Source: an uncultured delta proteobacterium
GTDB taxonomy: Bacteria > Desulfobacterota > Syntrophia > Syntrophales > UBA2192
DNA: 64,000 nt
Direction: 5' to 3'
Assembly (NCBI GenBank): GCA_963705165.1
Contig: CAVPJD010000009.1
Coordinates: forward strand, 69,666 to 133,665
The notes under the pieces: model-generated
Told to the model about the DNA's origin: nothing
The model's input: only the letters and a program-made list of their open reading frames with translations
Databases searched by the model: none
Shown: piece by piece, positions 43,004-64,000 of the stretch
Layout of the letters: the number at the start of each line of letters is the position of its first letter
Position numbering within the stretch: the first letter of the stretch is position 1
Translations under genes and position numbers: made by a program

Positions 43004-43027
43004 ATGATCCCGCAAAAATTTCATTGT

Positions 43028-44253: not shown

Positions 44254-45693
<1,440 letters not shown>

Positions 45694-45733
45694 GGCGGGT
45701 ACTCATCCCACACGTGAATGGGCCAACGACCAA

Positions 45734-47364: not shown

Positions 47365-47426
47365 GGGGGGTCGTTCGCGGAGCGCGGTGGGGGTCACGCG
47401 TGGCGGGGGATCACCCAGCGTGCGGG

Positions 47427-48950
47427 TCACGGCGCGGGCCGGCCACCCAGCCGCGACACCAGCGGCAGCAACACGAGGCCTGCTGCCGCCGCCAGCGTCC
47501 GGTACGGCCACAGCATCGCCCCGCCCGCGTCGTACCAGACGGCGGGATCGACCGCAACGAACCGCGCGGTCATCTCGGGGTAGGGGATGAAGGGTGCCGG
47601 CCCGAGCAGCGGCTCGCCCCCGCCCAGCCGAAGTACCAGCGACACGCCGAAGGCGACCATCGACGCCCTTCGCGTGGCGCGCGGGTCGTAGAGTGCGGCG
47701 ACCAGCTGCGGGAAGAGCAGCACGAACACGAGGTCCGACGTGAAGTCCCACAGCGCCTGCACGCTCTGCGCGCGCAGCGCGAGCACCGCCGCGACCGCAC
47801 CGACGACCAGCACGGCGAGCCGCACGGCGCGTGTCGTGCCCGCGGCGCCGAGCTCGCGTCCTCGCAGCGCCCGCAGGCCGTTCCAAATCGCCATCGACGC
47901 GGCCGAGAGCACCGACGCACTGAAGCTCGAGGTGACGGCGCCGACAATGGCGCTCAGGCCGAGCAGCGCGACCAGGGGCGGCGTGGCCTCACGCAACAAC
48001 AGGGGCAAGGCCTGGGCCGGGGTCGCGGCGAGTTGCGTGAGCGCCGGCTCGGTCCACGGGTACACCGCCGCGGCCACTCCCAGGATCAGCGGCGGCACGA
48101 CCAGGGCCATCGTCGCGAACCCGGCGACGATCGAGGTCCGCCGCGCATGCGCGGGAGACGAGCACGCCAGCACCCGTTGGAAATAGCAGTTCCATGGCAC
48201 GCCGCCCAGCAACAGCATCACGCTGAGGTCCCACCACGCCGTCACAGCTGGCAGCGTCCAATGCGCGCCGCCGAGGGTGACGGGCGGACCGAGTCCGCCA
48301 CGCTCGGCGAAGGTGGCGCGGTAGGCGCTCCACGTCGCGTCGAGCCCACCCGTGGCCGCGAGCACGAATGGCACGGCGAGGCACATCCCCACGCCGACCA
48401 GTGCGAGTTGCAGCACGTCGGCGTAGGTCACCGACCACAGTCCGCCCGCCATCGTGTAGGCGAGCACCGTCGCCGCCGCGACGAGCACCGCGACCTCGAA
48501 CGGGACGCCGAGCAGCGCCGCAGAGCTGGCGCCGATGGCAACCAGCAGCTCGGCGCTCCAGAACAGCTCGCCCATCACCGCCGGCACCGCGAGCACGGCG
48601 GCCCACGATCCGCCAAAGCGTTCCGCCAGGGGATCGATGAGGGTCGTGTAGCCCCGCGCGCGCATCCGGCCGGCGAAGCACGCGCCGCCGATCACCAGGC
48701 TGAGGCCGAAGCACACGCCGCCCTGCCAGCCCGAGGCGGGGCTCGACCGGAACGCGCCTTCCGCCGTGCCGAGCAGGTAGCCGCCATCCACCCACGTCGC
48801 CGTCATGGTGAGGACGGCCAGCCAGACCGGCAGCGCGCGACCGCCCAGGATGAGGTCCGACCGCCGGGCGCGCTTGGCGCCCTGCCACCCGAGCAGCAGG
48901 AAGGCGGCGAGCATGGCGGCGATGATGGCGGGCGCGGCGGCGGAGATCAC
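47427..48950 (-). CDS. Sodium:solute symporter (SSS) family transporter, intact
   Basis: A 507-aa uninterrupted polytopic ORF (LGGRALPVWLAVLTMTATWVDGGYLLGTAEGAF...). It lies directly upstream of the FGGY kinase on the same strand. Confidence 0.75.
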   Translation of the reverse strand: MISAAAPAIIAAMLAAFLLLGWQGAKRARRSDLILGGRALPVWLAVLTMTATWVDGGYLLGTAEGAFRSSPASGWQGGVCFGLSLVIGGACFAGRMRARGYTTLIDPLAERFGGSWAAVLAVPAVMGELFWSAELLVAIGASSAALLGVPFEVAVLVAAATVLAYTMAGGLWSVTYADVLQLALVGVGMCLAVPFVLAATGGLDATWSAYRATFAERGGLGPPVTLGGAHWTLPAVTAWWDLSVMLLLGGVPWNCYFQRVLACSSPAHARRTSIVAGFATMALVVPPLILGVAAAVYPWTEPALTQLAATPAQALPLLLREATPPLVALLGLSAIVGAVTSSFSASVLSAASMAIWNGLRALRGRELGAAGTTRAVRLAVLVVGAVAAVLALRAQSVQALWDFTSDLVFVLLFPQLVAALYDPRATRRASMVAFGVSLVLRLGGGEPLLGPAPFIPYPEMTARFVAVDPAVWYDAGGAMLWPYRTLAAAAGLVLLPLVSRLGGRPAP

Positions 48951-49107
48951 GGGGGAGGCCGGGATGGTGACCGGCGCAGCGTATCACCGTGCGGGCTGCG
49001 TATCCGTGCCGGTGCCGTGTCGTCGCGGCGCAGCGGGCTGGTCGGTCCAGCGTGCTGCTCGCTGGCCAGCCAAGGCGTGATAGCCTCCTGCCGCGAAGGA
49101 GCCGCGC

Positions 49108-50967
49108 ATGCCGACCAATGCGACGACCGCCACCGCCCGCGCCGAGGCATTCCTGCGCGATGCGGTCGAGTTTCGCCTTGGACCACTCGTGACCGAGGCC
49201 CCACACCCCCGGTCAACCGACCTGAGCCAGACCGCCAGGCAGGACGCGGCTGCTGGCCTCGGCGTCCTCTTCGACGTGGACCGTGACGTCTTCGAGACCT
49301 ACGACCGCTGGTCGCGCAGCGGCGAGCCCGAAGCCCTCCGCGACCTGGTGCTCGCATCGCTGGGCAAGGGCGGCCGCCTCTTCTTCACCGGGTGCGGCGC
49401 GACGGGTCGACTCAGCATCCAGCTGGCCTCGACCTGGCGAGCGTTCTGGCAGGATCGACGCCGCAGTGGCCGGGCGACGCCATCGCCCGACGTCTGGGAG
49501 CACCGCGCCTTCAGTGTGATGGCGGGCGGCGACTACGCGCTGATCAAGTCGGTCGAGGGGTTTGAGGACTTCGCCCCCTTTGGCCGCAAGCAGCTGGCGG
49601 AACTCGGGGTGGCGGCCGACGACGTGGTGTTTGCGATCACCGAGGGCGGCGAGACGTCCTTCGTGATTGGGACCGCCTGGCAGGGTCTCAGCGTGGGCGC
49701 GCGGGTGATCTTCGTCTACAACAACCCGGATGCCGTGCTCCGCGCCCACGTCACGCGGAGCCGCGAGGTGATCGACGAGCCGCGGATCCGCAAGGTCAAC
49801 CTCACCACCGGGCCGATGGCCGTGACGGGCTCCACGCGCATGCAGGCCACCAGCATCCAGTTGCTGGCCATGCTCACGGTGCTCGAGATGGTGCTCCGCG
49901 AGGTGTTGGTGCAGGCGGGGGTGGACGAGCCGGGGCCGTCCTCGGGCGAAGTACCCGAAGCGATGCGCGCGCGTTCGCGGCGCTGCACGAGACGTTGACG
50001 AGCGTTGCGGTGCGCGACGTGCTCGCTCGTCTGGTGCGGCGCCGAGGAGCACGTCTATCGCGCGGGTGCCGAACCTCGTACTTCGCGGACGCCCTGGCGT
50101 GGATGTCCTGACCGATACCACCGAGCGCAGCCCCACGTTCTGCACACCGTCCTTCCGCAAGTGGGACGATGACGAGGCGTCGGAGTCCTGGGCGTTCCTG
50201 TTCACGCCGGCGCCGACGACGCCCGAGGCCTGGACGCGTCTGCTCAGGCGGGCGCCCCAGACCATCCAGTGGAGCCGGAGGACCTGCGAGAACTGCTTGA
50301 CGAGGAGGCCGCCGAACGTCAGGGTGCGATTCTCGGCGAGATCGGCCTGCGTGAACTGCTGCGCTTCCGAATCGGCGTGGACGGCCTGCCGTATCGGCCG
50401 GTGCGCGCGGGCGACGGCATGACGGCGGTTGTGTGTGGAGAGGATCTAGCGCTGGTGGGAGACGGCGGCGTCTTCGCCCAGCAGCACGCTCGCGCGCGGG
50501 CCGGCGGCGCGCTGACGTCGATGATTGCCATCGGGCGCCCGGCTGCGCTCGCGCCTCTGGTCGCCACATCCGCTGCGCGTGCCAACGACGGCAGGACCCT
50601 CGCCGTCGCGGTGGCCGAGACGGCGTTGCTGCTCGACCCGCTCGTGCGAGTCGGCGCCAAGATGATCCTCAACGCGCTCTCGACCTGCACGATGGTCCGC
50701 CTCGGGCGCGTGCTGGGCAACCGCATGATCTGGGTGGTGCCGAGCAACCTCAAGCTGATCGATCGCTCGACGCGCTACATCCGCGACCTCGCATCGGTGT
50801 CCTACGAGGAGGCCTGCCGGTCCCTGTTCGAGGTCATCGACTACGTCGAGCCGAGACGCCGTGCGGGCCGGACCTATCCCGCTCCGGTGGGCGTGGCGAC
50901 GATGCGCCTGCGCCACGGGTTGAGCCTGGCGGAGGCGGAGGCGCGGCTGATTCAGGAACTCGGCTGA
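49108..50967 (+). pseudogene. SIS-domain sugar-phosphate isomerase/etherase-like protein (MurQ/GCKR superfamily), tiled over at least 3 frames
   Basis: ORF 49108..49998 reads GGRLFFTGCGATGRLSIQLAS...VVFAITEGGETSFVIG...VTGSTRMQATSIQLL. ORF 50066..50422 reads VDVLTDTTERSPTFCTPSFRKW. ORF 50269..50967 reads MILNALSTCTMVRLGRVLGNRMIWVVPSNLKLIDRSTRYIRDL. Confidence 0.5.
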
Positions 50968-52340
50968 GTGCCCGGTGCCCTCTCGACCGCCAGTTGACGC
51001 CCTGGCGATCTGAGGCTGCGGGACGCGCCGGAAGGCTCGCACGAGTTCTCTTCCACCGCGGCCCGCTGCGGATCGCCCTCCGACGCCCAGCCGGCTGGAC
51101 GTTCACTTCGAAGGCGGTGGGGGGCGATCCGGTGCCACCCCTCGATGCCGGCCAGCAGGAGCAGGATGCCGGTCAGGAGGGCTCCGTACCTGGGCATGAA
51201 GACGACGACGTAGTAGACGAGGGGAAACGTTACGAGTGGAATGACCAGGGCCGCCCGCTGGGGCACTGCCAGGGCAGGCCAGGCGCGCCGCAAACCCAGC
51301 GCCGCCAGGATCGTCAGCATCGCCGACGCCGCGGCCATCGGGCCCTGCGACGCCGACCCGAACCAGAAGTGGAACGCGCGCCGCGCCGTCAGGCTGAGGA
51401 ATCGCCCAGGATGCGCGCCAATCCACGCGAGGGCTTCCTGCCGGGAGCGGCGCATGTACTCGACCTCGCCAATCTGCTGCAGCAACTTCGCCTCGGCCAC
51501 GTTGGTTCGCGGGTGCCGGAGCGCCAGGCCTTCCGTCGCATCCATGACGTCGATGTCGGCCACGGCCCCCTCGTGGTTGCCCATGCGCAACTCGAGGCCG
51601 AGGTTGCTGCGGATGAAGAACACTTCTCCAAAGACGGCGTAGTTGCGCAAGCCCCAGGGGACGCAGGCCAGCGCCACGCCCACCAGCGTCAACGCCGTCG
51701 GCGCCCACCTGCGCCGGTCTCGGCTCCACCACAGATCGAACAGGAGGCAACCGAGCAGGACCGGAACCAGTGACGGTGTCAGGTGAAACGCGGCCCCCCA
51801 CGCAGCGCCCAGAACCAGGGCGCCGCGTGGCGACGGCGTTGCCCTTCGCCAGCGGCTCACATGCCACGCGAGCAACAGGCCGAGCGCGACCGCGGCGAAG
51901 TACTCGACCTGGTGCGGCCACCTCGGTACCAGGGCTCCGGCAAGTCCGCCGACGATGCCCGCCTCGCGGCCGACACCTAGACGGTGCGCCAGCCAGGGCA
52001 ACATGGCGACCATCGCTGCACTGGCCGCGACCTGCACGAACCATGTGGCGTACCCGGCCGCCATCGTCAGGCCGAAGAGCGTGTACAGCAGGCCGAGCAG
52101 GGCCGGGAATGCCGGCGGCACGTGCGCGGTCGGGCCGGTGGGCACCGCGTAGGGGTCGGCGAAACGTCCGGTGGTTGCAAGCGAGACGGCGACGGCGTTG
52201 GCTTCCCACCGCGCGTGCGGCTCAATCCACTCGCGCGGGACCAATGGCAGCAACGCGGTGCCCTCGGCGAAGGCGACGAGGAAGATGACCAGCAACGCGC
52301 GCGCGGGAGCCTGGGCCAGCCAGCGCACCGCCGATGCCAT
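50952..52340 (-). CDS. Polytopic membrane protein, GT-C (ArnT/PMT family 39)-like glycosyltransferase fold; hypothetical
   Basis: ATG 52340 (MASAVRWLAQ...) lies within track ORF 50952..52391. It has about 10 TM segments and a large loop (FIRSNLGLELRMGNHEG...). The family call is weak. Confidence 0.4.
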   Translation of the reverse strand: MASAVRWLAQAPARALLVIFLVAFAEGTALLPLVPREWIEPHARWEANAVAVSLATTGRFADPYAVPTGPTAHVPPAFPALLGLLYTLFGLTMAAGYATWFVQVAASAAMVAMLPWLAHRLGVGREAGIVGGLAGALVPRWPHQVEYFAAVALGLLLAWHVSRWRRATPSPRGALVLGAAWGAAFHLTPSLVPVLLGCLLFDLWWSRDRRRWAPTALTLVGVALACVPWGLRNYAVFGEVFFIRSNLGLELRMGNHEGAVADIDVMDATEGLALRHPRTNVAEAKLLQQIGEVEYMRRSRQEALAWIGAHPGRFLSLTARRAFHFWFGSASQGPMAAASAMLTILAALGLRRAWPALAVPQRAALVIPLVTFPLVYYVVVFMPRYGALLTGILLLLAGIEGWHRIAPHRLRSERPAGWASEGDPQRAAVEENSCEPSGASRSLRSPGRQLAVERAPGTQPSS

Positions 52341-52363
52341 GCCCGTGACCTCGCCGGCTCGAG

Positions 52364-52777
52364 TCAGGCGCCGAGCAGGGCGCCGACGCAATCCACGTCC
52401 TCCCGGTGGACGTAGAGGAGATAGGCGTAGCCGCCGCGCCCGTCAGCAATGCCACTCGAGGAGGCGATGTTGATCCCGTGCTCGTAGAGCTGCCGGTGAC
52501 ACTCCACGAGCGCGCCCAGGTGGTCGTCGCCCTGCATGAGGAATGCGTGCTGCGGCGAGCTCAGCCCCCAGCCCTGCTTCTCGGCAACGGCGGCGAGGTC
52601 CTCGAGGTCGGCAGGGAACATCACCAGCTGGGTCTTGTTCATCCCGAGCGGAATGGCGTGGAAGGCCAGCAGGTTCACGCCTCCGGCGGCCATTTGCGCG
52701 AGGAAGGGAAAGGCCTCCCCCGGGCGATCCTCGATGATGACGGAGCAATACGCGACGCGGCGGATGGTGGCGGCCAT
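52364..52777 (-). CDS. Small ACT-domain-like protein (hypothetical)
   Basis: ATG 52777 gives MAATIRRVAYCSVIIEDRPGEAFPFLAQMAAGGVNLLAFHAIP... (137 aa). Two similar halves suggest tandem ACT-like folds. Confidence 0.4.
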   Translation of the reverse strand: MAATIRRVAYCSVIIEDRPGEAFPFLAQMAAGGVNLLAFHAIPLGMNKTQLVMFPADLEDLAAVAEKQGWGLSSPQHAFLMQGDDHLGALVECHRQLYEHGINIASSSGIADGRGGYAYLLYVHREDVDCVGALLGA

Positions 52778-53126
52778 GGGTGGCCTCCTTGTCCCGGGGG
52801 GCGGGTACGCGAAGCGGCACCAGCCTACCACCGCTGGGCGTTGGCGGGGCGGCGGCCGCAGCCGGCCGACCCAACCTGGTGTCAGCACGTTGCAGGTCGC
52901 CTTCGGCTGGCCTGCTTGGATGCACATTTCTGGATCAGGGCGGCTCGGATCCAACGCGATGCATATCCCGGACAGTACGTGCCTCACGCAGACGAGGTAA
53001 GTGACGCTTCGCCATGGCTTTCCGGCTTGGTCTTGGAATTCCCTGTTTGGAACGACGATTGCCATCATTATGGGGTCAATCCAGCCGCGGTGACGTGCGG
53101 GTCACGTTGCCGGAAGGAGTGCACAA

Positions 53127-56100
53127 ATGCGACGAGCGACGTTCGCGCTACTCGGCCTTCTACTGTTCGTGGCGGTCGATGCGGCCGCGCAGTCCACGAC
53201 GGGCACCATCAGCGGCACGGTCCGCGACGCCCAACAGGCCGTGCTGCCCGGGGTGTCCGTGACGGTCCGCAACGTGGACACCGGGCTCTCGCGCACCATC
53301 ATCACCGACGCGAGCGGCGTCTACCGCTTCTCCGCCCTGCCGCTGGGGCGCTACGAGCTCGAGGCGGATCTGGCCGGGTTCGCGAAGTACTCGCGGAGCG
53401 GGCTGACCCTCGCCTTGAACCAGGAAGCGGTGATCGACATCGTGATGGGCCTGGCGACCCTGGAGGAGACCATCCAGGTGACCGCCGACTCGCCGATCCT
53501 CAACACGACCAATGCCGAGGTGGGCGTGCGGTTCGACAGCACGAAGGTCGCCGAGTTGCCGGTCGGCAACACGCGCGACATCTTCAGCCTGGCGCTGCAG
53601 GCCGCGGGGGTCAGCCAGGTCAACTCCGGCCAGTCGAACTTCGCCAGCGGCACCAACTTCTCGGTCAACGGCATGCGGACCCGTTCGAACAACTTCATGA
53701 TCGACGGGCAGGACAGCAACGATCCGAGCGTCACCGGCCGCCAGCAGCCGCTGAACAACACCGACCTGATCCAGGAGGTCCGGCTGATCACCAACCAGTT
53801 CGCCGCCGAGTTCGGGCGCGCCGCCGGGTCGGTGATGAGCGTGGTGACCAAGAGCGGCACCAACAACTTCCGCGGCAGCGCGTTCATCTTCCGCAACGAG
53901 GATGCCCTGAATGCGCGCACGAACCTGGACAAGGCCGCCGGCCGCACCAAGGCGCCGTTCCTCGAGGAGAACCAGTACGGCGGCACGCTGGGCGGCCCGA
54001 TCATCCGCCAGCGGACCGTTCTTCTTCGGGTCGTACCAGCGCTGGACGCAGGACCAGCTCGGGGCGGGCACGACGCTCAACGGCGCGCCCACCGAGGCCG
54101 GCCGCCAAATCCTGCAGAGCGCCGTCGGAAGCCTGCCGCAGATCCAGGCACTGCTGAAGTTCCTCCCCGCGGCGCAGACCCCACTCAACCGCAACGTCGC
54201 CTTCTCCTACGGCGGCAACACCTACTCCGTCCCGATCGGCTCGCTGACAGGGTCCTCGACGATCGAGTACAGGAACCACCAGGCATCCGGCCGCGTGGAT
54301 CACCAACTGGGCGGCGCCGGCCGCACATCCTCTCCGCGCGCTACCTGTTCAACGACACGACGCAGTCCGGTGCCGGCCAGGTGACGCCTCCCGGCGTGAC
54401 GACCGTGGCCCCGTCGCGATCGCAGTCCTTCGCGACCTGGTGGACCGGCATCCTCAGCAACACGCTGGTGAACGAGTTCCGCGTCGCCTACTCACGCGCC
54501 ACCAGGAGACCACCGCCGCGGACACTGTCGTCGCAGGAGATTCCGTCCATCGAGATCAACGAGCTCGGGCTGCTTGGGTTCAACGCCGCCGCCACCCGCA
54601 CGGCCATCGGCCTGGCGCTGAACCTGCCGCAGTGGCGCAAGAACGGCCTGCGGCAGATCCAGAACAACCTCTCCTGGACGGCCGGCAACCACTCGACGAA
54701 GTTCGGCGTGGACTACCGGTCGACCGACATCGACAGCTTCTTCAACCCGACCCTGCGCGGCCGGCTGCAGTACACGACCCTCCAGCGCTACGTGGACGAC
54801 GTGGCGAACGTCGCGCAGATCAACAAGCCGCTGCCCGGCGGGTCGCGAGGTGGTCAACTACAACTGGGGCGACGTCTACTTCTTCGGGCAGGACGAGTGG
54901 CGCATGTCGCCGGGCTTCACCCTCAGCTACGGCCTGCGCTACGAGCTGCCCGGCAACTTCACCGACTCGCTCGTCGAGCTGAACGATCGGATCGTCGCGA
55001 CGGCAGGCGGCGACGAACGCTTCCGGCTGAAGCCCGTGCCCCCGCGCGACACCAACAACTGTGCAGCCGCGGCTCGGCTTCAACTGGAACCCGAAGACGC
55101 GACACCGGCGGCATCATGGGGACGCTGACCGGCGGGGACAAGCTGGTGGTGCGCGGCGGCTACGCCATGACGCACGACTACGCGTTCCTCAACATCGCGC
55201 TGAACATCGCCAGCGCGTTCCCGCAGGTCGCCGTCCTCGAGGTGCCGACGGTGCAGACGCCCCCGGCGGGCCCGGCCGGCCCAACGGCCTTCGTCCGCTC
55301 CCAACCTGACGCTGACCGGCGACCCCGACCTCGTCACGCGGACCGTCGTGGCCGACGACTTCCGGTCGCCGTCGGCGCACCAGTTCAGCTTCGAGGTGCA
55401 GCGGCGATGGCGGCCAACCTCGCGCTGCGCATCGGCTACGTGGGCACGCTGGGACGCGGCCTGTTCCAGACGCTCGACGGCAACCCGCGGCAGCCCTACT
55501 CGGCCACGCCGCGTCGACCCGACGCGTGGCGTGATCCGCCTGCGCGCCAACGCCGCCAGTCCTGGTACAACTCGTTGCAGACCAGCCTCGAGCGGCGGTT
55601 CAGCAACGGGTTCAGCGCCGGCGTCGCACTACACGTGGAGCCAGTACCTCGACACGGCCTCGGAGATCTTCAACGTCTCCAGCGGCGAGGTCGCCGTGGC
55701 GCAGGACTCCTTCGACATCGCGGCGGACAAGGGCCTCTCTTCCTACGACCGGCCGCACCGGTTCACCGGCAACGTCGTCTGGGAGCTGCCGTTCTATCGC
55801 GACCAGGCGGGGTTCGCCGGGAAGGTCCTCGGCGGCTGGCAGCTGAGCACGAACTTCACCCTGCAGAGCGGATCGCCGTTCACCGTGCTGAACGGCGCCG
55901 ACCCGACGGGAGCACTGACCGGCATCGACGGCCTGGTGGGCAACGCCATCCGGCCCAACATCAACACCGACCGAGGACCTCTCGAAGATGACGGTTGCCG
56001 AAATCCTCGCGGCCGGGCGGCGCCACGCTCTTCACGCCGCTGTGCGGGTTCCAGAGCGCGACGTGCGCCGGAGAGCGCGTCGGCAACGTGGGCCGCAACA

Positions 56101-56345
56101 CGCTGCGCGCCGACGGCTACGGCAACATCGACCTCGGGTTCATCAAGAACACGCGGTTCTTCGGTCGGCAGAACATCCAGTTCCGCCTCGAGGCGTTCAA
56201 CCTGACCAACACGCGGAACTTCGGCGTGCCCAACAGCCAGATCAACTCGGTCAACTTCCTCAACCAGTGGGGCACCGACGGCGGCGGGCGCAAGATCTGG
56301 GTAGCGATTCGGTACACCTTCGATGCCGAACGCGTGAGCCGATGA
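53127..56345 (+). pseudogene. TonB-dependent receptor with an N-terminal CarboxypepD_reg-like domain (Acidobacteria-type), with about a dozen frame changes
   Basis: The signal peptide is MRRATFALLGLLLFVAVDAAAQ. Then come TGTISGTVRDAQQAVLPGVSVTVRNVDTGLSRTIITDASGVYRFSALPLGRYEL and a plug region (NGMRTRSNNFMIDG). The C-terminus is RLEAFNLTNTRNFG...IRYTF. Coherent sequence hops frames near 54010, 54315, 54848, 55060, 55095, 55300, 55405, 55510, 55555, 55625, 55980 and 56015. Confidence 0.8.
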
Positions 56346-56730
56346 CGACGGGGCCTGGGCGACTCCCAGGCCCCGGACGTTGTGCCGGTCGAGCGCGAGG
56401 CGGCCGTCCAACCAGCCCTGGGACGGTCACGACCTCCACATCGGCCGGCGAGAAGACTACCAGGGCGGCCAACGTCGACCCCGCGCCTTCAACGGCAAGG
56501 CCGCGGTCGTGAGAACCTCGCAGGGGCGCGCGCCCGTGAGCGGGATTCCGGCAATCCTGTGACGGCTTTCCTGCCGCGGTGGGGGGCCAACCTCCGCAGG
56601 ACATCCAAAAGCGATGCAATCGGTCCGCCTCGCGGCTGGCATGTGACGTGCGTCTTCGTGGGCGTCCGTCGGTGCCGCCGCGGATGAAGCGTGCCGCAAG
56701 GCGGTCCAGACGGCTTGCCCGGGAGCCCCC

Positions 56731-59700
56731 ATGGGATCCAGCACTGGCCGGTGGCGTGTGCCCCTGCGGCACGCGGCGTCATTGCTCGTCACCTTCCTCG
56801 TTCTTGTCGGCACAGCCCGCCCCTCCGCGGCATTCGATTGGTGCACGATCGAGGTCGACTACCAAGGCATCAGCACGGTGCATGTCAGCTACCAGACGAT
56901 CGGCGGGCTGCCGGTCGGCGCCCGTCTCGAGGTGCGGCGCGGCGACTCTACCACCAAGCTCAAGGACCTGGCCGGCGCGGCCAGCACCTTCCAGGACCGC
57001 CTGGCGCTGCCGCTCACGGCGCAGCGCTACATGGTTGTCGCCGACCGCCTGGTCAACGGGACGCTCACCCGCGACGAAGGCTGCGCCGTGGAGATCACGC
57101 TCACCAACGAGGTCTCGGGCATCCCCACCGGAGACGATGCGATCGAGGGTGAGAAGCACGGCTCTCGCTCGTACGACTCGGCCAACTCATCCTGAACCCC
57201 GGCATCACCATCGCCATCACCCAGTCGACGGTCGAGAGCCTCATTGTCCACGGCCCTGGTGCGACGGGCATCCTGGTGGGCGGGATGACCTGGACCCGCA
57301 GGCCAGCCTCACCGTGTCGGACTCGGTAGTGGAATACGCGAGCGTCTCCTACGCCGCCCCCGTGTTCAACCGGGTGCGCTTCCGCGGCAGGGTCGACATC
57401 GCCGCAGGAGCGCCGATCTTCAGGAAGTGCCAGTTCCCGGGCATCGCCGTGGCGTTGGATGGCCGGACGGGCGCCGTGTTCACCGAGAACGTCTTCGGCG
57501 CCGGTATCTACGTGAGCGGTTCGACGTGGCCTGGCTTCCCCGCGGACCTCGCCAGCAGTTGGTGGCAGATGAGCGCCCCGAACCCCGTGATCGAGGGCAA
57601 CAGCTTCGTCGGCAAGGCGGCGCTGGGGTACCCGGTACGGCGACCCGCCGCCACCAATGCCGATCGTCGTTGGCGCGAACTACTACGGCGACATCGGCGG
57701 GCCCGTAACCGGCGGCTCGGCCTTTCTCGAAGGGCGCGGCGCTGTCGTCACGCTCGACGCCGACTGCGGCGGCGGCTGTCAGCCGAAGCGGGTGTTCGAC
57801 CTCACCACACCGATGACGTCGGGCTTGCCGCGTGACGACCCGGGCATCTTCCCCTGGTTCTGGTTCCGCTCCGTGGTCGGACAGAACGCGATGGACCTCG
57901 TCGCCGGCCATGGCCCGATGATGCAGGGTCGCGAAACGCTCTACAGCGCCGACATCCGTACCGCCGACACCGAGGTCACGGGCGTGGACGTCTACGTCAA
58001 GCTCGACGGCAAGGTGATCAAGCCGACCAACGAGAAGTTGGCGATTCGCCGAGACAGCGCGGCCTTCGGCGACGCGGCGTTCCGCCGGGCCACCATCACG
58101 CACAACTTCATCCTGCCGCCCGTGACCGCCGACACGGCGACGCTCGAGCTCTGGCTCGACGCGTCGAAGGTCACGGGGTTCACCGCACCCACGCCGCCGC
58201 CTCAACTGTTCGAGCAACGGACGCTGACCTTCAGCAAGCCCCTCGCCCGCCCCTACCGGATCTGCATCCGCCCTGCCCGCGTCGTCACGTGGTGGAGCAA
58301 GGGCACGTGGCCGGACATCTCGAGGACCATCCAGGCCGTCAGGCGCCTGATGCCGGCGATGCTTCCCGTCAGGTCGGAGGATCTCGTCCTGATCAGTTGC
58401 CCGGTCATCGACTTCGATCCCGGCCTGCTCGATCAGAAGCTGTTGGTCACGACGTTGCTGGGTCGCCTGGCCGACGAGACCTACGTCGACAACGCGCTGG
58501 ATTGGCTGATGGGGCGCAACAGCGTCGACCTGACGGTGGTCGTGGTCGAGGACGGGCTGCTGGGAGCGGGCACCGACGCGGCGAGCATGCCCCTGCGACG
58601 CCAGACGGTCATTGTCGATGAGGCCAGGCCCGACGCGCTGATCCACGAACTGGGCCACGCGGCAGGACTGAACACGGGATTCGGGCAGGAGCAGTACGAC
58701 CTGTTTCCAGATTTCGGATCACCGCTGGAGGGCATCACCATCTTCTCGCCCGACGGCCTGCCTGCCCCGAATCCCTTCAGCAGCGGCGACGCGGGCCGTA
58801 TCCAGCACCACGTCAACCGGTACAACCGCACCTACGACGAGGACGATCTGGCCTACGACGTGATGGGCGACGGGACCAACGCGTCGTGGCCGCTGCCGGC
58901 CACAGCCAGAGCCATCGGCGGACTCATCGCCTCGACGACCGGGACCGTCGGCGCCCCGGTGCAGGAGGCCTCGATAGCCTCGGCGGCGCTGACGCCAGGC
59001 ATGAAGCGCGTTCTCGTCACGTCGACGACCGAGAAGGTCATCGGCCAGGGCCCGTTCGGTACAACCTCCGACTTCAGGCTCCTGCCGGGCACGACGCGGG
59101 CGTTCGAACTCGGGCCCGACGTGGTGCGCGCGCTGCCGCCGGTGCCGCTGAACGTCAGCCACCCGACACAGAACGTCGGCGACCCGACCGACTTCGACGC
59201 CCTCGACGCCAACGCCTCGGTGGTGGCATCCGTGCACTTCGGGGTCGTGAACCGCGTGCAGGAACAGGGCCATCAGGACCGCGGCTTCTGGGCGGCGACC
59301 TTCGATGTCCCCGAGAGCGCGGTGTTCTACCGCCTGAGGCGTCAAGCCGATGGCGTGTTCCCGATTGCGGTCTACGACGCGTCGCTTGCGACACGCCTCA
59401 CGGCACCACTCGGCGGCGACACGATTGGCGCGTCGCTGCGCGTGGCGTGGGTCGATACGTGGGACTACCGCGGCCTCACCCCTGCGCCTTCGTTCGTGCA
59501 ACCGCTCCAGCACCGCCTCCACTACAGCATCGACGGCGTCGCGTGGGTGCCGCTCACGGCGAGCGTCACTGGCACGGAGACGACCTTCGGCACCTCGATG
59601 CTGCCCGGAGGCGCCACCATCAGCCTTCGACTCACGGTGAGCGACGGACTCCGCAGCGCGACCGCGCGCGTCGACAACCTAGTCGTCCAACGTCGCCCTC

Positions 59701-61862
59701 CCGGGGTTTCGATTGTCCTTCCCCACGCGGGTGCACAGGGCACGCCGGATTCCCTCTGGCGGCTCGACGCGCTCGTCTGGGATGACGATGGCACTGCCGT
59801 CACGACGACCTGGTCTTCGGATCGCGATGGCGAGCTGGGGACGTCGCCAGTCCTGATTGGCATCGCCCTCACGGCCGGAGCCCACAAGCTGACCTGCCGC
59901 GCGACCGACGGCAACGGCCAGGTCACCGAGGCGGGGGTGGACGTGACTGTGGGAACCCTCCCGTCGCTCGACGTAGCCGTGACCGCTGACGCACTCACGG
60001 TGAAGCACGCCGCGTCGGGGCCGGTGACCTCACCGGCATCACGCGACCTCTCGCGCAACCACGACTACCTCGCGGCAGTGCGCATCCCGGTTCCGGGCGC
60101 CTCCACGACAGCGACCGTGCGGTTGTTCCTCACCTCGCCCGGGGCCGCGGAGCAGCTCCTCGTCGAGCAGACGCGCACCGCCGATGCCTTTCAGGATCTC
60201 GTCGTGTCCCACCGCTTCACAACCGCGGGCGACGGCGAGTACGTGTTCCGCGCCGTCCTAAGTGGCGCCACGCCGAACGCCGATCCATCCAACGACCAAC
60301 GCACGTGGCGCTTCTCGGTGGCGACGTTCACGCCGTCGGCCGGCGACGGCGATGGCGACACCCTGCCCGACGCGTGGGAGACCCGGTTCGGTCTCGATGC
60401 GGTAGCGCCGTACGGAGACAGCGGCGCGTACGGCGATCCCGACAAGGACGGGATCACCAACAGCGAGGAGTCCCAGCGCGGCACGCACCCGCGCGGCTTC
60501 TACACGCGCTATTTCGCTGAAGGCGCCACCTCCGACTTCTTCGACACGGAATTGGCTCTCGTCAATCCCAATGACGACACCGCGCTGGTGAATCTGCGGT
60601 TCCAGCAACCCGGAGGCGCTACCACGGCCCATGCGGTGAGCCTGCCTCCACGCTCGCGTCGCACGGTGGACCCAAAGGTGGACGCCGGGCTGAGGGATGC
60701 CGAGTTCTCCACGGTGGTCGAGTCGGATCAGGCCGTCATCGTCGACCGCACGATGACCTGGAGCAGCGCGCAGCGTTACGGAAGTCACTCGGAAACCAGC
60801 GTCGCGTCCGCGTCACTCACTTGGTACCTGGCCGAAGGCGCCACCCACTCCGGCTTCGACCTGTTCTACCTCCTGCAGAACCCGGGAGCGGAGGCCGCAC
60901 ACGTTCGGGTGCGCTACTTGCTGCCCGCCGGGGCGCCGCTCACGAAGGACTACGTGGTGCCGCCCGGCAGCCGCTTCAACATCTGGGTGAACCATGAGGA
61001 GTTCCCCGAGGGGTCGGGGCACGGCTGCTCCTGTCCACCGACGTCTCGGCGGTCGTTGAGGTGACCAACGGGATTCCGGTCATCGTCGAGCGTGCGATGT
61101 ACCTGAGCCGGACCAACCGCCTCTTCAGCGCGGGCCACGAGAGCGCCGGGATCACGGCGCCGTCCACCTCGTGGTTCCTTGCCGAGGGAGCCACCGGGAG
61201 CTTTTTCGATTTCTTCATCCTGCTGGCGAACCCGTCGGAGCGCGAAGCCGAGGTGGAAGCGCGCTACTTGCTCGAGGATGGCTCGACGGTCGTGCGTCCG
61301 TACACGGTCGCGCCCAACAGCCGGTTCAACATCTGGGTGGACTACGAGGATCAGCGACTGGCGGCGGTGTCGGCATCGACCGTGCTCAGGGTCACCAACG
61401 GCGTGCCGATCATCGTCGAACGCGCCATGTGGTGGCCGTTGGACGCGGGGCACTGGTACGAAGCCCACAACTCTGCCGGGGTCACCAGCGCCGGGGTGGC
61501 GTGGGGGATCGCCGGCGGCGCCGTCGGCGGTTCCGAGTCTGCGGCCACCTACGTGCTCGTCGCGAACACGGGCGATCTCGGACGGACTCGTCAAGGTGTC
61601 GGTGCTCGGGGAGGCGGGCGAACTCGCCCACCTGGTGTTGCCCGTGGCGAGCCACTCGCGGACGACGATCGACATCGGGGGAACGCCGGCGTTGGCCGCC
61701 GCCCTTGAGCCGACTCGCGCCTCTCAGGCGCGCTTCGGCGTCATCGTCGAGAGCCTCGGAGCCAATCCCGCGCCCATCGTCGTCGAGCGTGCGACGTATT
61801 CCGACAGTGCAGGGGTGAGGTGGGCGGCCGGCACGGACGCGCTGGCCACGAAGATCCGCTGA
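56731..61862 (+). pseudogene. Giant (~1,700 aa) secreted multidomain protein, tiled over 5 frame changes
   Basis: A GGGAG RBS precedes ATG 56731, which encodes the signal peptide MGSSTGRWRVPLRHAASLLVTFLVLVGTARPSAA. Domains in order are a beta-helix-like region, an HExxH motif, Ig-like regions, TSP3-like Ca-binding motifs and four tandem ~110-aa 'AEGAT' modules. Frames change at ~57180, ~57285, ~57635, ~61020 and ~61575. HELGH lies at 58644-58658. The TSP3-like motifs are DGDGDTLPDAWE and DPDKDGITNSEE (60340-60471). The modules start near 60498, 60815, 61166 and 61496 (YFAEGATSDFF, WYLAEGATHSGF, WFLAEGATGSFF, WGIAGGAVGG). Confidence 0.6.
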
Positions 61863-62021
61863 GCCGCAGGCCCCGAGCGGCCGACCCGGGGAACCCCGAG
61901 AGCGCCGGGCACCACCCTGCCTGGACGACTGTCTCGCAGCGACGGCGCAGCACTACCTGGATCGCTTCGGGCAGCGGATGCTGTAAGGTAGAGCGAGCGG
62001 CGACTCAATGGAGGTTCTTCA

Positions 62022-63308
62022 GTGACGGCCTGTCGAGCCGGCAGCCACGCCCTGGCTCGCCGGCGCCACCGCGCACCACGGCTGGGTGGCACCGCGTGTG
62101 CCCTCGCGGTGGCCCTCTGCCTGGCGGGCGCGGCCGGCCTCGCAGCCTCGGCGCCCCCGTCGCGTTCCTCCAGTTCCTCGCGCTTTCGCACCGCGGTTGA
62201 CGCGGCCAACGACGTGCCCCCGGCGCTGCTGGCCAGGATGCGCGCGACGCCGCATGCGTACTTCCGCTTCGTCAACAAGGAGTGGACGCAGGCCGTCTGC
62301 GACGAGTACCGCGCCGACATCGAGCGCCTGCCAACGGTCCGGCTGCACGGCGACGCTCACGTCGAGCAGTACGCGGTGACGGCCGACTCGCGTGGCCTGG
62401 ACGACTTCGACGACTCGGCGATGGGACCGGCGGTCGTCGACATCGTCCGCTTTCTGGGCTCGCTGCAGCTGGTGGCACGGCAGGAGGGATGGCAGCGCGA
62501 GAACCACGCGTTTGTCGACGCGTTCTTCCGCGGCTACGAGCGTGCCCTCGACGATTCGTCCTACACCCCGAAGGAACCCGCGGTGGCGACACGCCTGCGC
62601 GAGCGCCCGGTGCGGAGTCCCTCTCGAGTTCCTCGCCTGGGCGGAGTCGCTGATGCGCGAGGCCTCGCCGGAGGTCATGCGCGCGTTGGAAGACGGCCTC
62701 GCGGCGTTTCGTCGGCACTCCGTCGAGCAGATGCCCGAGGTCACGGAGGGCTACGTCGCGGTCAAGAAATTCGGCGTGCTGCACATGGGCATCGGCAGCG
62801 CCCTCTCCTTGAAGGTGCTGATGCGCGTCGAGGGGCCGTCGGCCGCCCCCGACGACGACGTGATCGTCGAGGCCAAGGAACTGGTCCGCCTCGACAGCGC
62901 ATCGTGCGTGAGCGTGCCGCCGCCAATCGAGGCGTTCCGCGTCGTCACCGCGGCCTCGCAACTCGGGCGTCTGCATCACCGGTTCCTCTGGTGGTCCCGG
63001 TCCCGCACGCGATCAACGACCGTCCCGACTCGCCGGGCTGGTGGGTGCGGTCGTGGGACGCCACCTACCGCGAATTGGAGATCGCCGACCTCGCCTCGCC
63101 GACGGACCTGCTCCAGGTGGCCGAGGACGCCGGTGCGCAACTGGGCGCCGCCAACACGCGCGAAGGGCCCGAAACGGATCGCGCGGCCGCCAGGCGGCGC
63201 GAGCGGGCCACCGTCGCCAGGCTCGAGCCCCGCATTCGCCGAACCGCGGCCAGGCTGACGGCTGAGGTCGTCGACGCGTGGGAGGTCCTCAAGGCCGCCC
63301 GACCCTGA
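62022..63308 (+). pseudogene. DUF2252-like protein with a signal peptide; two frameshifts
   Basis: A GGAGG RBS lies 7 nt before GTG 62022. The block YFRFVNKEWTQAVCDEYRADIERLPTVRLHGDAHVEQY is recalled from DUF2252. The middle third reads coherently only in the frame of ORF 62392..63258 (EFLAWAESLMREASPEVMRALEDGLAAF...). The reading returns to the first frame near 62975. Confidence 0.55.
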
Positions 63309-63357
63309 TCCCGGACATGCGAGGGGCCGCTGCGCGCCTTGACTGGCACGCCCCGGC

Positions 63358-64000
63358 ATGGTGTCATCCCTCGTGCTTCACACCACGTTACCTCGTGTAC
63401 GAACGCGGGCCGGCCAGGTCCTGGTGGCCCTGGTCGTCGCCGGTGCCTGCGCCATGGCTCCCCGGGCGCTCGCCCAGGTTGCGGGCGTCGCCAAGACAGC
63501 GACCCCGGCCCCGACTCCGCCTGCGCCAGTCGTCGAGGCCGAGGCCGAGGCGCCGGATTCCCCTCGTGCCTCGATGCGGACCTTCCTTCACCTCGTCACT
63601 GTGAAGGGCGACTTCACGGCCGCCGCGAAGTACCTCGCGCTCCAGCCGGAACAGGTGTCGCGCGGCCCCGAACTCGCGCGGCGCCTGCGCGCCGTGCTCG
63701 AGCAACTGGACCGCATCGACACCGACGCGCTGTCGCCCTCCTCGGACGGCAACCGCGAGGACGGGTTGCCCGCCGGCGTGGACCAGATTGCGTCGGTGCC
63801 GGACGCGCAGGGGGGGTCCGATCCCGTCGTCCTGGTCCGGCGTCGGGACGAGCTCGGTACCCGGTGGGCGTTCTCGCCGCAGACCGTCGCCCGGATCGAC
63901 GGCTGGTACCGACAACCTGCCCGACCATTGGGTGCGGGACCGGCTGCCCGAGCCGCTGCTGCGCTACGGGCCGCACAATCTGATGTGGTGGCAGTGGCTG
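63358..64000 (+). pseudogene. Mechanosensitive channel (MscS family) N-terminal periplasmic region, 3'-partial, with one frameshift near 63905
   Basis: Hand translation from ATG 63358 gives MVSSLVLHTTLPRVRTRAGQVLVALVVAGACAMAPRALAQ...SPRASMRTFLHLVTVKGDFTAAAKYLALQPEQVSRGPELARRLRAVLEQLDRIDTDALSPSSDGNREDGLPAGVDQIASV...RWAFSPQTVARIDGWY. After a 1-nt shift it reads DNLPDHWVRDRLPEPLLRYGPHNLMWWQWL to the window end. The pattern is recalled from large MscS/MscK-type channels. Confidence 0.55.

What the first reader, a model, noticed from the sequence alone, without database searches (positions are those of the whole stretch)
56731..61862. ~1,700-aa secreted HExxH protein ending in four tandem copies of an uncharacterised 'AEGAT...NP' module
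Stitching the frames gives the following order:
- a signal peptide
- a repetitive beta-helix-like stretch (..VSDSVVEYASVSYAAPVFNRVRFRGRVDIAAGAPIFRKCQF..)
- a single HELGHAAGLNTGFGQEQY zinc-protease-like motif at 58644-58658
- Ig-like segments
- thrombospondin-type-3-like calcium motifs (DGDGDTLPDAWETRFGLD, DPDKDGITNSEE)
- four ~110-aa repeats

Each repeat opens with [YW][FYL][FL]AEGAT..[FG]F[DF]..[LI].[LI].NP, degenerate in the fourth copy (WGIAGGAVGG). The middle two repeats share SRFNIWV...V.NG[IV]P[IV]IVERAM; repeats 1 and 4 keep only a weaker [AP].IV[DE]R.(M/T) ending.

I recall seeing the AEG-x-T/NP module in hypothetical surface proteins, but I know of no assigned function or structure. 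The gene sits directly downstream of a TonB-dependent receptor, which suggests an extracellular substrate-processing role.

Its 3.4-kb centre is a single intact ORF (57657..61064), while both ends are frameshifted.
Basis: partly seen in the sequence, partly recalled or inferred. Interest (0 to 1): 0.6.

Follow-up and report, generated by a model that had tools for sequence, protein, structure and literature searches.

The report
Secreted protease-like protein with ASRT-fold tail
This is a real gene for a 1,700-residue exported protein from a soil acidobacterium; its four 'mystery' end-repeats have a known sugar-binding-type fold (ASRT/TM1070) and form a tail that this bacterial order attaches to thousands of unrelated exported proteins, probably to hold them at the cell surface.

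Summary
One + strand gene (56731..61862) encodes about 1,709 aa once five single-base frame changes are bridged. It is collinear with an intact 1,696-aa ortholog (56% identity over the 1,137-aa central ORF). Neighbouring genes switch frame too, so assembly indels are more likely than gene decay.

The 'AEGAT...NP' module is not an unknown fold. Each copy matches TM1070 (1NC7; TM-score 0.84, rmsd 1.6 A) and the Anabaena sensory rhodopsin transducer. It keeps the two hallmark residues of the ASRAH superfamily described in 2009, which is predicted to bind sugars and occurs as dyads or tetrads.

What looks new is the context. The four-module tail has more than 3,000 homologs. All named or located ones are Vicinamibacterales. 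About 95% sit at the extreme C-terminus. They follow unrelated passengers, with up to 19 or more copies in one MAG and no conserved neighbours.

The HExxH region belongs to an unannotated multi-phylum family (118 clusters). Its invariant residues are HExxH, E-x-Y, H and D-x-M. Its only family matches are sub-threshold zincin hits. Relatives end in PEP-CTERM-like tails or dockerins instead of the tetrad.

My best reading is a surface-retained metalloprotease with a glycan-binding anchor. The TonB-receptor link is not conserved.

The parts
56731..61862 (+). Whole gene, about 1,709 codons after bridging five frame changes
   Evidence: Stitched. It is collinear with the intact 1,696-aa ortholog P0122 in tblastn.
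56731..56832 (+). Sec-type signal peptide (MGSSTGRWRVPLRHAASLLVTFLVLVGTARPSAA|FD)
   Evidence: It has a basic n-region, an 11-aa hydrophobic core (Kyte-Doolittle 2.8) and an A-x-A-like site. P0122 shows the same pattern. This is a heuristic; SignalP was not run.
57150..57160 (+). Frame change 1 (frame 1 to 3)
   Evidence: The frame-3 piece 57156-57296 (GQLILNPGITIAITQSTVESLIVHGPGATGILVGG) resembles P0122 residues about 155-190.
57287..57296 (+). Frame change 2 (frame 3 to 2)
57637..57648 (+). Frame change 3 (frame 2 to 3)
57287..57700 (+). It is conserved across the HExxH family (C.F...V.V.GG.P.F..CEF, NSF.G, IG.NYYGD..GP).
   Evidence: Family consensus. No Pfam hit. The fold was not modelled.
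58224..58976 (+). Putative zinc metallopeptidase domain of an unannotated family
   Evidence: 118 cluster representatives found by full HMMER. AF2 gives an alpha/beta fold with HExxH in helix 327-335. Invariant residues. Only sub-threshold zincin hits.
58644..58658 (+). HELGH zinc-binding/catalytic motif
   Evidence: Invariant H, E and H in 46 sequences. Coordinates.
58689..58697 (+). E-Q-Y: invariant Glu and Tyr, candidate third zinc ligand
   Evidence: E345 and Y347 are invariant.
58806..58865 (+). Invariant His384 and the D401-x-M403 motif (YDVMG). These are alternative ligand candidates or a Met-turn-like element.
59001..59591 (+). Beta-sandwich (Ig-like) domains after the catalytic domain
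   Evidence: AF2 secondary structure, residues 449-645. Foldseek hits here are only Ig-like.
59724..59927 (+). PKD-like domain
   Evidence: Pfam PKD, E = 0.005, 17.3 bits, below the 23.5-bit cutoff. PKD or PKD_4 is significant in relatives.
60345..60470 (+). Two TSP3-like calcium-binding repeats (DGDGDTLPDAWETRFGLD, DPDKDGITNSEE) acting as a linker
   Evidence: Weak NCBIfam MtsD TSP3 match. A strict TSP3-like motif lies upstream of the tetrad in 41 of 80 paralogs. TSP3_bac is among the Pfam families precomputed for homologs.
60495..60818 (+). ASRAH (ASRT/TM1070-fold) module 1
   Evidence: AF2 pLDDT 95.6. Foldseek to 1nc7 and 2ii7. Tyr replaces the hallmark Trp; the Asn (NP) is kept.
60819..61168 (+). 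ASRAH module 2 (contains frame change 4 at about 61019-61025, next to a G-run)
61169..61498 (+). ASRAH module 3
61499..61859 (+). ASRAH module 4, degenerate AEG (WGIAGG), with a helix insertion (contains frame change 5 at about 61575)

Best explanation
The gene encodes a Sec-exported multidomain protein of about 1,700 aa, from a Vicinamibacterales-like acidobacterium. The taxon is inferred from the best hits.

The passenger part is a member of an unannotated, multi-phylum family of large surface proteins. That family is built around a zincin-type HExxH domain, which most likely acts as a zinc metalloprotease on extracellular or surface protein substrates.

The C-terminal tail is two calcium-binding TSP3 repeats followed by four ASRAH (ASRT/TM1070-fold) beta-sandwich modules. 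The four modules pack into one rigid unit. This may be an intramolecular copy of the homotetramer that free ASRT and TM1070 form.

I propose that this tetrad is a lectin-like module that binds a glycan of the cell's own envelope. By doing so it would hold the passenger at the cell surface. On this view it serves as the order's generic anchor for exported proteins, in the way SLH or CWB2 repeats serve other bacteria.

Shown here: the gene structure, the fold and superfamily of the modules, the distribution and architecture of the tail, and the conservation of the HExxH signature.

Inferred: sugar binding, the self-envelope ligand, the pseudo-tetramer geometry, protease activity, and that the frame changes are assembly errors.
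For: Gene structure:
- The gene is collinear with the intact ortholog P0122.
- Family HMM positions are contiguous across the frame breaks.
- Frame switching is also seen in the neighbouring TonB receptor and DUF2252 genes and at 39-47 kb.
- One junction sits next to a G-run.

Module identity:
- AF2 of the 454-aa tail gives pLDDT 95.6 and pTM 0.93.
- Foldseek matches 1nc7 at E = 6e-8, TM-score 0.84, rmsd 1.6 A, and 2ii7 with TM-scores of about 0.64-0.80 across its chains.
- The tail profile, searched against all PDB sequences, hits only TM1070 (E = 0.006) and ASRT (E = 0.025).
- The hallmark Trp at the start of strand 1 and Asn at the end of strand 2 are kept (PMC2739507; sequence).
- ASRAH domains were already noted to occur as dyads or tetrads and predicted to bind sugars.

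Anchor role:
- More than 3,000 homologs at 50-59% identity.
- 115 of 120 listed homologs end within 24 aa of the C-terminus, and 79 of 83 tetrad ORFs in genomic loci end within 4 aa of the stop codon.
- Passengers are unrelated: TIG, FN3, CarboxypepD_reg, DUF11, M64 peptidase, P-domain, CAP, HAF, FG-GAP, purple acid phosphatase N-domain, PD40 and others.
- All 78 best genome loci are Vicinamibacterales, Luteitalea, or less finely classified acidobacterial or bacterial MAGs. One MAG contributes 19 of them.
- Paralogs within a MAG are as diverged as those between MAGs (about 56% identity), so the tail is old and under purifying selection.
- No conserved neighbour gene was found.
- 22 full-length tetrad proteins have Sec signal peptides.
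- Relatives of the same HExxH passenger in other lineages end in PEP-CTERM-like tails, dockerins or other C-terminal domains, and 15 of 32 carry choice-of-anchor D domains. The tetrad therefore occupies the slot used elsewhere for anchoring or sorting.

Protease:
- HExxH, E+11, Y, H and D-x-M are invariant.
- The motif lies in a helix preceded by three strands and followed by a C-terminal helix.
- Weak hits are enriched in zincin families: M66 in 7 of 32 members, plus Reprolysin, M6 and M10. EcxA and an astacin are the top PDB sequence hits.
Against: - No ligand, localisation or activity has been measured for any member of either family.
- The tail itself scores nothing on Pfam ASRT or DUF5719. 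Its closest relatives score just below threshold (24-25 bits against 26.2).
- Sequence-level E-values to TM1070 and ASRT are only borderline.
- The ligand residues of the ASRT-like family (His and Cys of the SHEshChhN signature) are not kept, so the ligand cannot be transferred.
- I could not read model coordinates, so the pseudo-tetramer geometry is untested.
- How such proteins would cross the outer membrane of a diderm is unknown. The tetrad could instead bind peptidoglycan and retain the protein in the periplasm, as was suggested for the amidase-linked tetrads.
- Foldseek of the 648-aa HExxH model found no solved zincin at E < 1e-3.
- The third zinc ligand is not identified.
- The five frame changes could be real, which would make this copy a pseudogene.
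Confidence: 0.5

Rival explanations
1. The tetrad is a substrate-targeting carbohydrate-binding module. It would bind an environmental polysaccharide, such as plant, fungal or microbial EPS, to bring the passenger enzyme to its substrate, rather than anchoring it to the producer cell.
For: The ASRAH superfamily is predicted to bind sugars. Beta-sandwich CBMs are commonly C-terminal. Four of 83 tetrads are internal, which shows the module tolerates other positions. Some passengers are CAZyme-associated, such as BACON and the Fn3-like domain of GH3.
Against: CBMs usually accompany enzymes acting on the bound polymer. Here the passengers include proteases, phosphatase-like domains, a dehydrogenase-like domain, CAP, and many purely structural repeats. 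A single, highly conserved tail on dozens of unrelated proteins per genome fits a shared localisation function better.
Confidence: 0.25
2. The tetrad is a C-terminal sorting or secretion signal. A dedicated, still unknown export or attachment machinery would recognise it, as with the T9SS C-terminal domain or PEP-CTERM/exosortase, and it might be removed on export.
For: It is at the extreme C-terminus in about 95% of cases. It is lineage-restricted, highly paralogous and joined to interchangeable passengers. Relatives of the passenger use PEP-CTERM-like tails.
Against: At about 450 aa it is several times larger than known sorting domains. Four of 83 ORFs carry further domains after it. No conserved neighbouring machinery gene was found in 78 loci. 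The fold belongs to a ligand-binding superfamily.
Confidence: 0.1
3. This particular copy is a decaying pseudogene. The five frame changes are real and no full-length protein is made.
For: There are five frame changes in 5.1 kb. The fourth module's AEG motif has degenerated relative to the family consensus.
Against: No residues are lost at the junctions. The third-position GC signal stays strong in every segment, and neighbouring genes switch frame in the same way. There are no in-frame stops within segments. One junction lies next to a G-run, which is typical of long-read indels.
Confidence: 0.15
4. The HExxH domain is not a peptidase. It could be a metal-dependent binding domain, an inactive zincin-like module, or an enzyme acting on a non-protein substrate.
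For: No Pfam, NCBIfam or PDB match reaches significance. The canonical third ligand of metzincins (His or Asp at +6) is absent. Inactive zincin-like proteins are known partners of actinobacterial ASRAH proteins.
Against: The catalytic Glu and both His residues are invariant across 46 diverged sequences, together with E-x-Y, H and D-x-M. An inactive domain would not be expected to keep them. Weak hits are concentrated in zincin peptidase families.
Confidence: 0.25

Closest known systems
ASRAH superfamily (ASRT / TM1070; De Souza, Iyer & Aravind 2009, PMC2739507), especially the four-copy version fused to secreted N-acetylmuramoyl-L-alanine amidases of Chloroflexi
   Same: It shares the eight-stranded beta-sandwich fold. 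The Trp at the start of strand 1 and the Asn at the end of strand 2 are kept, and ASRT itself reads W-A-I-A-E-G. Four tandem copies occur on a secreted enzyme, and a sugar or envelope-glycan binding role is predicted.
   Different: This is a separate sequence family, below the Pfam ASRT and DUF5719 thresholds. It lacks the His and Cys ligand residues of the ASRT-like family. It is joined not to one enzyme type but to thousands of unrelated passengers. It is nearly always terminal, often follows a TSP3 linker, and was found only in Vicinamibacterales-type Acidobacteriota.
Pfam DUF5719 (PF18986). I infer from memory that this is the actinobacterial ASRAH dyad lipoprotein family.
   Same: Closest homologs of the tail give sub-threshold matches of 24-25 bits. 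Both are extracytoplasmic tandem beta-sandwich proteins.
   Different: The window protein has no match at E <= 10. It has four rather than two modules, no lipobox, and none of the WhiB/glycosyltransferase gene context described for the actinobacterial family.
Repeat-based non-covalent cell-surface anchors (SLH triplets, CWB2 triplets of Clostridioides). This comparison is from general knowledge.
   Same: Tandem repeats form one compact unit, sit on many unrelated exported proteins of one lineage, and are proposed to bind an envelope glycan.
   Different: The fold is unrelated, the organism is a diderm acidobacterium, and there are four modules. The ligand and localisation are untested.
Zincin metallopeptidases with HExxHxxG (metzincin-like; the weakest-but-best matches are M66 StcE-like, M12B reprolysin-like, and EcxA 4L63)
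   Same: It has HExxHxxG in a helix after a beta-sheet, a downstream invariant D-x-M that could be a Met-turn, and a C-terminal helix. Zincin families recur among weak hits.
   Different: There is no His or Asp at the +6 third-ligand position. Instead an invariant E-Q-Y follows after a variable loop. No significant sequence or fold match to any solved or curated peptidase family was found.

Membership tests
ASRAH superfamily (ASRT/TM1070 fold) | Eight-stranded beta-sandwich with TM1070 topology | tested here: met
   Foldseek of the AF2 model matches 1nc7_A at E = 5.6e-8, probability 1.00, TM-score 0.84 (target-normalised), rmsd 1.6 A over 116 residues. It also matches the 2ii7 chains with TM-scores of about 0.64-0.80.
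ASRAH superfamily (ASRT/TM1070 fold) | Conserved Trp after a polar residue at the start of strand 1 | tested here: met
   TW, SW and AW in modules 2-4, with Tyr (RYF) in module 1. W110, W225 and W335 are invariant or nearly invariant in 111 sequences. The criterion comes from PMC2739507.
ASRAH superfamily (ASRT/TM1070 fold) | Near-invariant Asn at the end of strand 2 | tested here: met
   LVNP, LQNP, LANP and VANT. N24, N129, N244 and N356 are invariant or nearly invariant.
ASRAH superfamily (ASRT/TM1070 fold) | Significant sequence-profile relationship to ASRT or TM1070 | tested here: inconclusive
   The tail profile, searched against 177,635 PDB sequences, hits only TM1070 (E = 0.006) and ASRT (E = 0.025-0.028). 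Pfam ASRT gives only E = 0.007-0.03 in homologs and nothing in this protein.
ASRAH superfamily (ASRT/TM1070 fold) | Occurs as a dyad or tetrad able to form a tetramer-like assembly | tested here: inconclusive
   Four tandem copies are present and pTM is 0.93 for the four-module chain.
ASRT-like family proper (stand-alone intracellular sensors) | SHEshChhN signature with ligand-contacting His and Cys; single-domain cytoplasmic protein | tested here: not met
   Strand 2 reads FFDTELALVNP, GFDLFYLLQNP and FFDFFILLANP, with no His or Cys. The protein is exported and multidomain.
Pfam DUF5719 (PF18986) | Score at or above the 26.2-bit gathering threshold | tested here: not met
   No hit at E <= 10 for the tail. 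Homologs P0001, P0037 and P0112 score 24.0-24.9 bits.
Zincin metallopeptidase (clan MA) | HExxH on an active-site helix following a beta-sheet with an edge strand | tested here: met
   HELGH at residues 330-334 lies in helix 327-335, preceded by strands 292-297, 308-310 and 317-321. H, E and H are invariant.
Zincin metallopeptidase (clan MA) | Identifiable third zinc ligand | tested here: inconclusive
   There are three invariant candidates, E345 (EQY), H384 and D401. None could be placed at the metal site without coordinates.
Zincin metallopeptidase (clan MA) | Significant sequence or fold similarity to a curated or solved peptidase | tested here: not met
   No Pfam or NCBIfam family matches the catalytic region. 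Foldseek against PDB gives nothing at E < 1e-3. The best PDB sequence hit is EcxA at E = 0.041. The best Pfam hits among members are Reprolysin_3 at E = 0.002 (2 of 32) and M66 at E = 0.0067 (7 of 32).
Metzincins | HExxHxxGxx(H/D) and a Met-turn | tested here: not met
   HELGHAAGLNT has the Gly, but Thr stands at the third-ligand position (family consensus HExGHxxGLYT). The invariant D-x-M could be a Met-turn, but this is unverified.
Peptidase M64 (recalled resemblance HExGHxxxxLxDEY) | Pfam PF09471 match | tested here: not met
   No hit in the protein or in 32 relatives. hhalign against P0004, which carries a truncated M64 domain, gave probability 0.3.
Bacterial TSP3 calcium-binding repeat | D-x-D-x-D-G-x-x-[ND]-x-x-E motif | tested here: met
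   Motif instances lie at 60345-60398 and 60435-60470. There is a weak NCBIfam MtsD match. TSP3_bac is among the Pfam families precomputed for some homologs, and the strict motif lies upstream of the tetrad in 41 of 80 paralogs.
Known C-terminal sorting signals (PEP-CTERM, T9SS CTD, LPXTG) | Corresponding motif or domain at the C-terminus | tested here: not met
   The protein ends ...GTDALATKIR with no transmembrane or basic tail. No Pfam or NCBIfam sorting-domain hit.

The most novel reading that the evidence does not exclude
The (TSP3)-ASRAH-tetrad tail is a previously unrecognised surface-anchoring cassette specific to the order Vicinamibacterales. On this reading it is a lectin-like pseudo-tetramer that marks and retains most of the exported or surface proteome of these bacteria by binding an envelope glycan. 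It would be a functional counterpart of SLH, CWB2 or T9SS-CTD systems, built from the fold of a cyanobacterial 'rhodopsin transducer'. The passenger would also define a new zincin peptidase family with an HExxHxxG...EQY signature.
Probability: 0.35. Interest if true: 0.65.

Novelty: new variant of a known kind. Interest (0 to 1): 0.45.

Why it matters
Vicinamibacterales are abundant soil bacteria that are hard to grow, and little is known about how they display or release proteins. If this tail is their generic surface anchor, three things follow.

- It gives a simple sequence tag for listing their surface proteome from metagenomes.
- It points to a testable envelope-glycan ligand.
- It extends the ASRT/TM1070 fold from a debated cytoplasmic 'transducer' to a mass-deployed extracellular lectin.

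The HExxH passenger also flags a multi-phylum family of large surface proteins, 118 clusters at 50% identity, that no curated peptidase or domain library currently covers.

For annotation, thousands of 'hypothetical proteins' could be labelled as carrying ASRAH tetrads.

Tried and rejected
- Word-indexed homolog search with the HExxH region and with its family alignment found nothing. Only the exhaustive HMMER search found the family.
- An exact look-up of the 1,135-aa central ORF found no contig, although an identical representative (P0121) exists.
- Foldseek with the whole 648-aa HExxH model was dominated by Ig-like hits and gave no zincin.
- The M64 relationship I recalled from the HExGH..L..EY pattern was not supported.
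- TonB-receptor association was tested and rejected.
- Conserved-neighbour clustering in 78 loci found only common acidobacterial genes, such as Ser/Thr kinases in 14 loci, histidine kinases and FtsX-type permeases. I treat these as background.
- Apparent stand-alone tetrad proteins of 378-452 aa turned out to be truncated gene calls that start inside module 1.
- Concerted evolution of paralogs within a genome was tested and not seen.
- Literature searches for DUF5719, ASRAH, and Vicinamibacter or Luteitalea with sorting or C-terminal domain found no description of this tail. An early alignment of 77 long sequences failed.

Full report

The region 56731..61862 on the + strand carries one long coding signal, split over three reading frames. 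I stitched six pieces into a 1,709-aa product:

| Piece | Frame |
|---|---|
| 56731-57156 | 1 |
| 57156-57296 | 3 |
| 57287-57637 | 2 |
| 57648-61019 | 3 |
| 61025-61576 | 2 |
| 61575-61859 | 3 |

An intact 1,696-aa ortholog, P0122 (56% identity over the 1,137-aa central ORF), was found later. It aligns collinearly through the frames.

A profile of the C-terminal tail matches the three frame pieces at contiguous profile positions: 1-172, 174-358 and 359-444. No residues are lost at the junctions. This is the signature of single-base indels.

Third-position GC tracks show the same kind of frame switching in the upstream TonB receptor, in the downstream DUF2252 gene, and across 39-47 kb. One junction lies next to a G-run. 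I therefore think the breaks are assembly errors, at about 0.8, rather than decay of this gene. Only re-sequencing can settle that.

HELGH is at 58644-58658, the TSP3-like motifs at 60345-60398 and 60435-60470, and the four modules start at 60495, 60819, 61169 and 61499.

**2. What is the 'AEGAT...NP' module?**

Pfam and NCBIfam give nothing for the tail. The 454-aa tail nevertheless has more than 3,000 homologs at E <= 1e-3, the best at 50-59% identity.

With 110 of them as an alignment, AlphaFold2 gives a very confident all-beta model (pLDDT 95.6). The pTM of 0.93 implies that the four modules are fixed relative to one another.

Foldseek against the PDB matches single modules to two structures:
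- Thermotoga TM1070 (1NC7): E = 6e-8, TM-score 0.84, rmsd 1.6 A.

Independently, the tail profile searched against all PDB sequences returns only TM1070 (E = 0.006) and ASRT (E = 0.025). ASRT itself begins W-A-I-A-E-G.

De Souza, Iyer and Aravind (2009, PMC2739507) defined this ASRAH superfamily. Its hallmarks are:
- a Trp after a polar residue at the start of strand 1;
- an Asn at the end of strand 2;
- occurrence as stand-alone tetramers, as dyads (actinobacterial lipoproteins), or as tetrads (Chloroflexi secreted amidases);
- predicted binding of sugars in a cleft formed partly by the dimer interface.

The window's modules keep both hallmark residues: TW, SW and AW (Tyr in module 1), and NP, NP, NP and NT. 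They come as a tetrad. They lack the His and Cys ligand residues of the ASRT-like family.

Closest homologs score just under the threshold of Pfam DUF5719 and weakly on Pfam ASRT.

So the module is a divergent ASRAH domain. Its fold is solved and a function has been predicted, but no function has been demonstrated for extracellular versions.

**3. What is new about the tail?**

Position:
- In 115 of the 120 best homologs the match ends within 24 residues of the C-terminus.
- In 78 genomic loci, 79 of 83 full tetrads end within 4 residues of the stop codon.
- Four ORFs continue with other domains after the tetrad.

Passengers: the parts in front are unrelated. They include TIG, FN3, CarboxypepD_reg, DUF11, InlB-B-like repeats, PATR, HAF, FG-GAP, RCC1, PD40, CAP, M64 peptidase, the proprotein-convertase P domain, the purple-acid-phosphatase N domain and BACON.

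Linker: about half of the paralogs have the same TSP3-type linker just upstream.

Export: full-length members have ordinary Sec signal peptides and no lipobox.

Distribution:
- A scan of one genome per species found at least 493 encoded relatives.
- The best 78 loci are all from Vicinamibacterales, Vicinamibacteraceae or Luteitalea MAGs, or from less finely classified acidobacterial or bacterial MAGs.
- 19 of the 78 come from a single MAG, and nine loci carry two tetrad genes.
- Tetrads within one MAG are as diverged as tetrads between MAGs (about 56% identity). The paralogs are therefore old and the tail has been held under selection in each.

Context: no neighbouring gene is conserved. A TonB-receptor homolog is near only one of the 78 loci.

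**4. The HExxH passenger.**

The word-indexed search found no relatives. The exhaustive HMMER search found 118 cluster representatives, 60 of them at E <= 1e-30. Most are proteins of 1,200-2,500 aa in which the 640-aa query region starts around residue 300-500. Those with names are 'hypothetical', for example from Chloroflexia.

Across 46 sequences at 25-55% identity, the invariant residues are H330, E331, H334, E345, Y347, G354, F363, H384, D401, M403 and T416. This gives the family signature HExGHxxGL[YN]T-x(1-6)-EQY ... H ... D-x-M.

AlphaFold2 (pLDDT 85, pTM 0.85) puts HExxH in helix 327-335. Three strands and two earlier helices precede it, and helix 414-428 follows it. That order resembles the zincin/metzincin layout; this is my reading of the secondary-structure string, not a superposition.

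Evidence from curated and solved families:
- No curated family covers the region.
- Foldseek with the whole multidomain model found no zincin.
- The best PDB sequence hits are the metzincin toxin subunit EcxA (E = 0.04) and an astacin (E = 0.6), both aligned over the HExxH helix.
- Among weak Pfam hits of 32 members, zincin families dominate: M66 in seven members, then Reprolysin_3/4/5, M6, M10, M41 and M54.

That condition is not met, but the ligand is also not identified.

Only this protein and its ortholog P0122 combine this passenger with the tetrad. Other members end differently:
- PEP-CTERM-like tails, for example ...VPEPAAVVLAVLAALVRRRAS;
- dockerin-like repeats;
- compact C-terminal domains ending F-Y-R-V-x-V;
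- a short [FY][LV]P[LM][IVL]xR tail.

In addition, 15 of 32 members carry choice-of-anchor D domains.

**5. How it most likely works.**

Shown here:
- an exported multidomain protein;
- a conserved zincin-like site;
- Ig-like, PKD-like and TSP3 spacers;
- a rigid C-terminal ASRAH tetrad, which in this order is a promiscuous and strongly conserved appendage of exported proteins.

Inferred:
- The tetrad reproduces within one chain the tetramer of free ASRT and TM1070.
- It binds a carbohydrate.
- Because one conserved tail serves many unrelated passengers, and sits in the slot where relatives carry anchoring or sorting signals, that carbohydrate is most likely a component of the cell's own envelope. 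The protein would then be a surface-tethered protease.

The internal tetrads and the lack of linked machinery favour a binding module over an obligate terminal secretion signal. The breadth of passenger types argues against a substrate-matched CBM, although I cannot exclude that.

A peptidoglycan ligand with periplasmic retention, as proposed for the amidase-linked tetrads, also remains possible.

**6. Comparison, novelty, verdict.**

The module belongs to a known superfamily.

Two things appear to be new:
- the Vicinamibacterales-specific, massively paralogous, mostly terminal tail family with its TSP3 linker;
- the unannotated HExxH...EQY family.

Searches of the held literature for DUF5719, ASRAH, and Vicinamibacter or Luteitalea with sorting or C-terminal domain found no description of either.

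I rate this as a new variant of a known kind, with interest 0.45. It is useful for annotation and gives a concrete, testable hypothesis about the acidobacterial cell surface, but it is not a new class of system. The TonB-receptor context should be disregarded.

Noticed in passing
window 39500-47500 and 52300-63400: The codon phase with the highest GC switches every few hundred bases within what look like single genes. This suggests many single-base indels in this part of the assembly. Other stretches, such as 25600-31900 and 47400-50100, keep one phase.
   Followed up: partly
window 53127-56345 (+): A TonB-dependent receptor (CarboxypepD_reg, Plug and OMP beta-barrel, ending ...IRYTF) lies directly upstream. 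It is itself broken by several frame changes. Its adjacency to the HExxH gene is not conserved in related loci.
   Followed up: yes
window 62022-63308 (+): The downstream gene is a DUF2252/APH-like protein. It also shows frame switching near 62550 and 62970.
   Followed up: partly
proteins P0124, P0137, P0139, P0141, P0142, P0151, P0157, P0161, P0189 (relatives of the HExxH passenger): Their extreme C-termini share a short motif, [FY][LVM]P[LMA][IVL]xR, followed by a few further residues in some. Examples are IYLPLILRGR, YVPMIRRSNPYP and FVPLMLR. At least one cluster is from Chloroflexia. It looks like a C-terminal sorting-type tail that no Pfam or NCBIfam model reported.
   Followed up: no
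proteins P0140, P0147, P0152, P0155, P0156, P0164, P0168, P0174, P0176, P0177, P0186: Another group of relatives ends in a compact domain finishing ...[FY][FY]R[VIL]x[VI]xx, for example FYRVRVEVP and YYRVELK. No library matched it, and it may be a different lineage-specific C-terminal domain.
   Followed up: no
L066:4478-11629, L033:5524-8313, L077:451-3936, L062:3535-7647: These are rare ORFs in which the ASRAH tetrad is not terminal. It is followed by TSP3 repeats and long further regions, or by repeats whose sequence recalls Calx-beta domains (not tested).
   Followed up: partly
L021, L048, L018, L004, L011, L071, L057, L063, L065: Nine loci carry two tetrad-bearing genes within about 13 kb. 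In L021 the two stop-to-stop ORFs are adjacent on the same strand, and several of these ORFs are very long, at more than 1,500 codons.
   Followed up: no
L079:13093-14406 and 15367-20154: The ortholog's locus has an alpha-L-fucosidase gene convergent with it. Just beyond lies an integrase/SprT-like/AAA_25 cluster that looks like an integrated mobile element.
   Followed up: no
window 50952-52391 (-): This is a 479-aa ORF with multiple hydrophobic segments and no Pfam hit. Its appearance recalls a membrane glycosyltransferase, but this was not tested.
   Followed up: no
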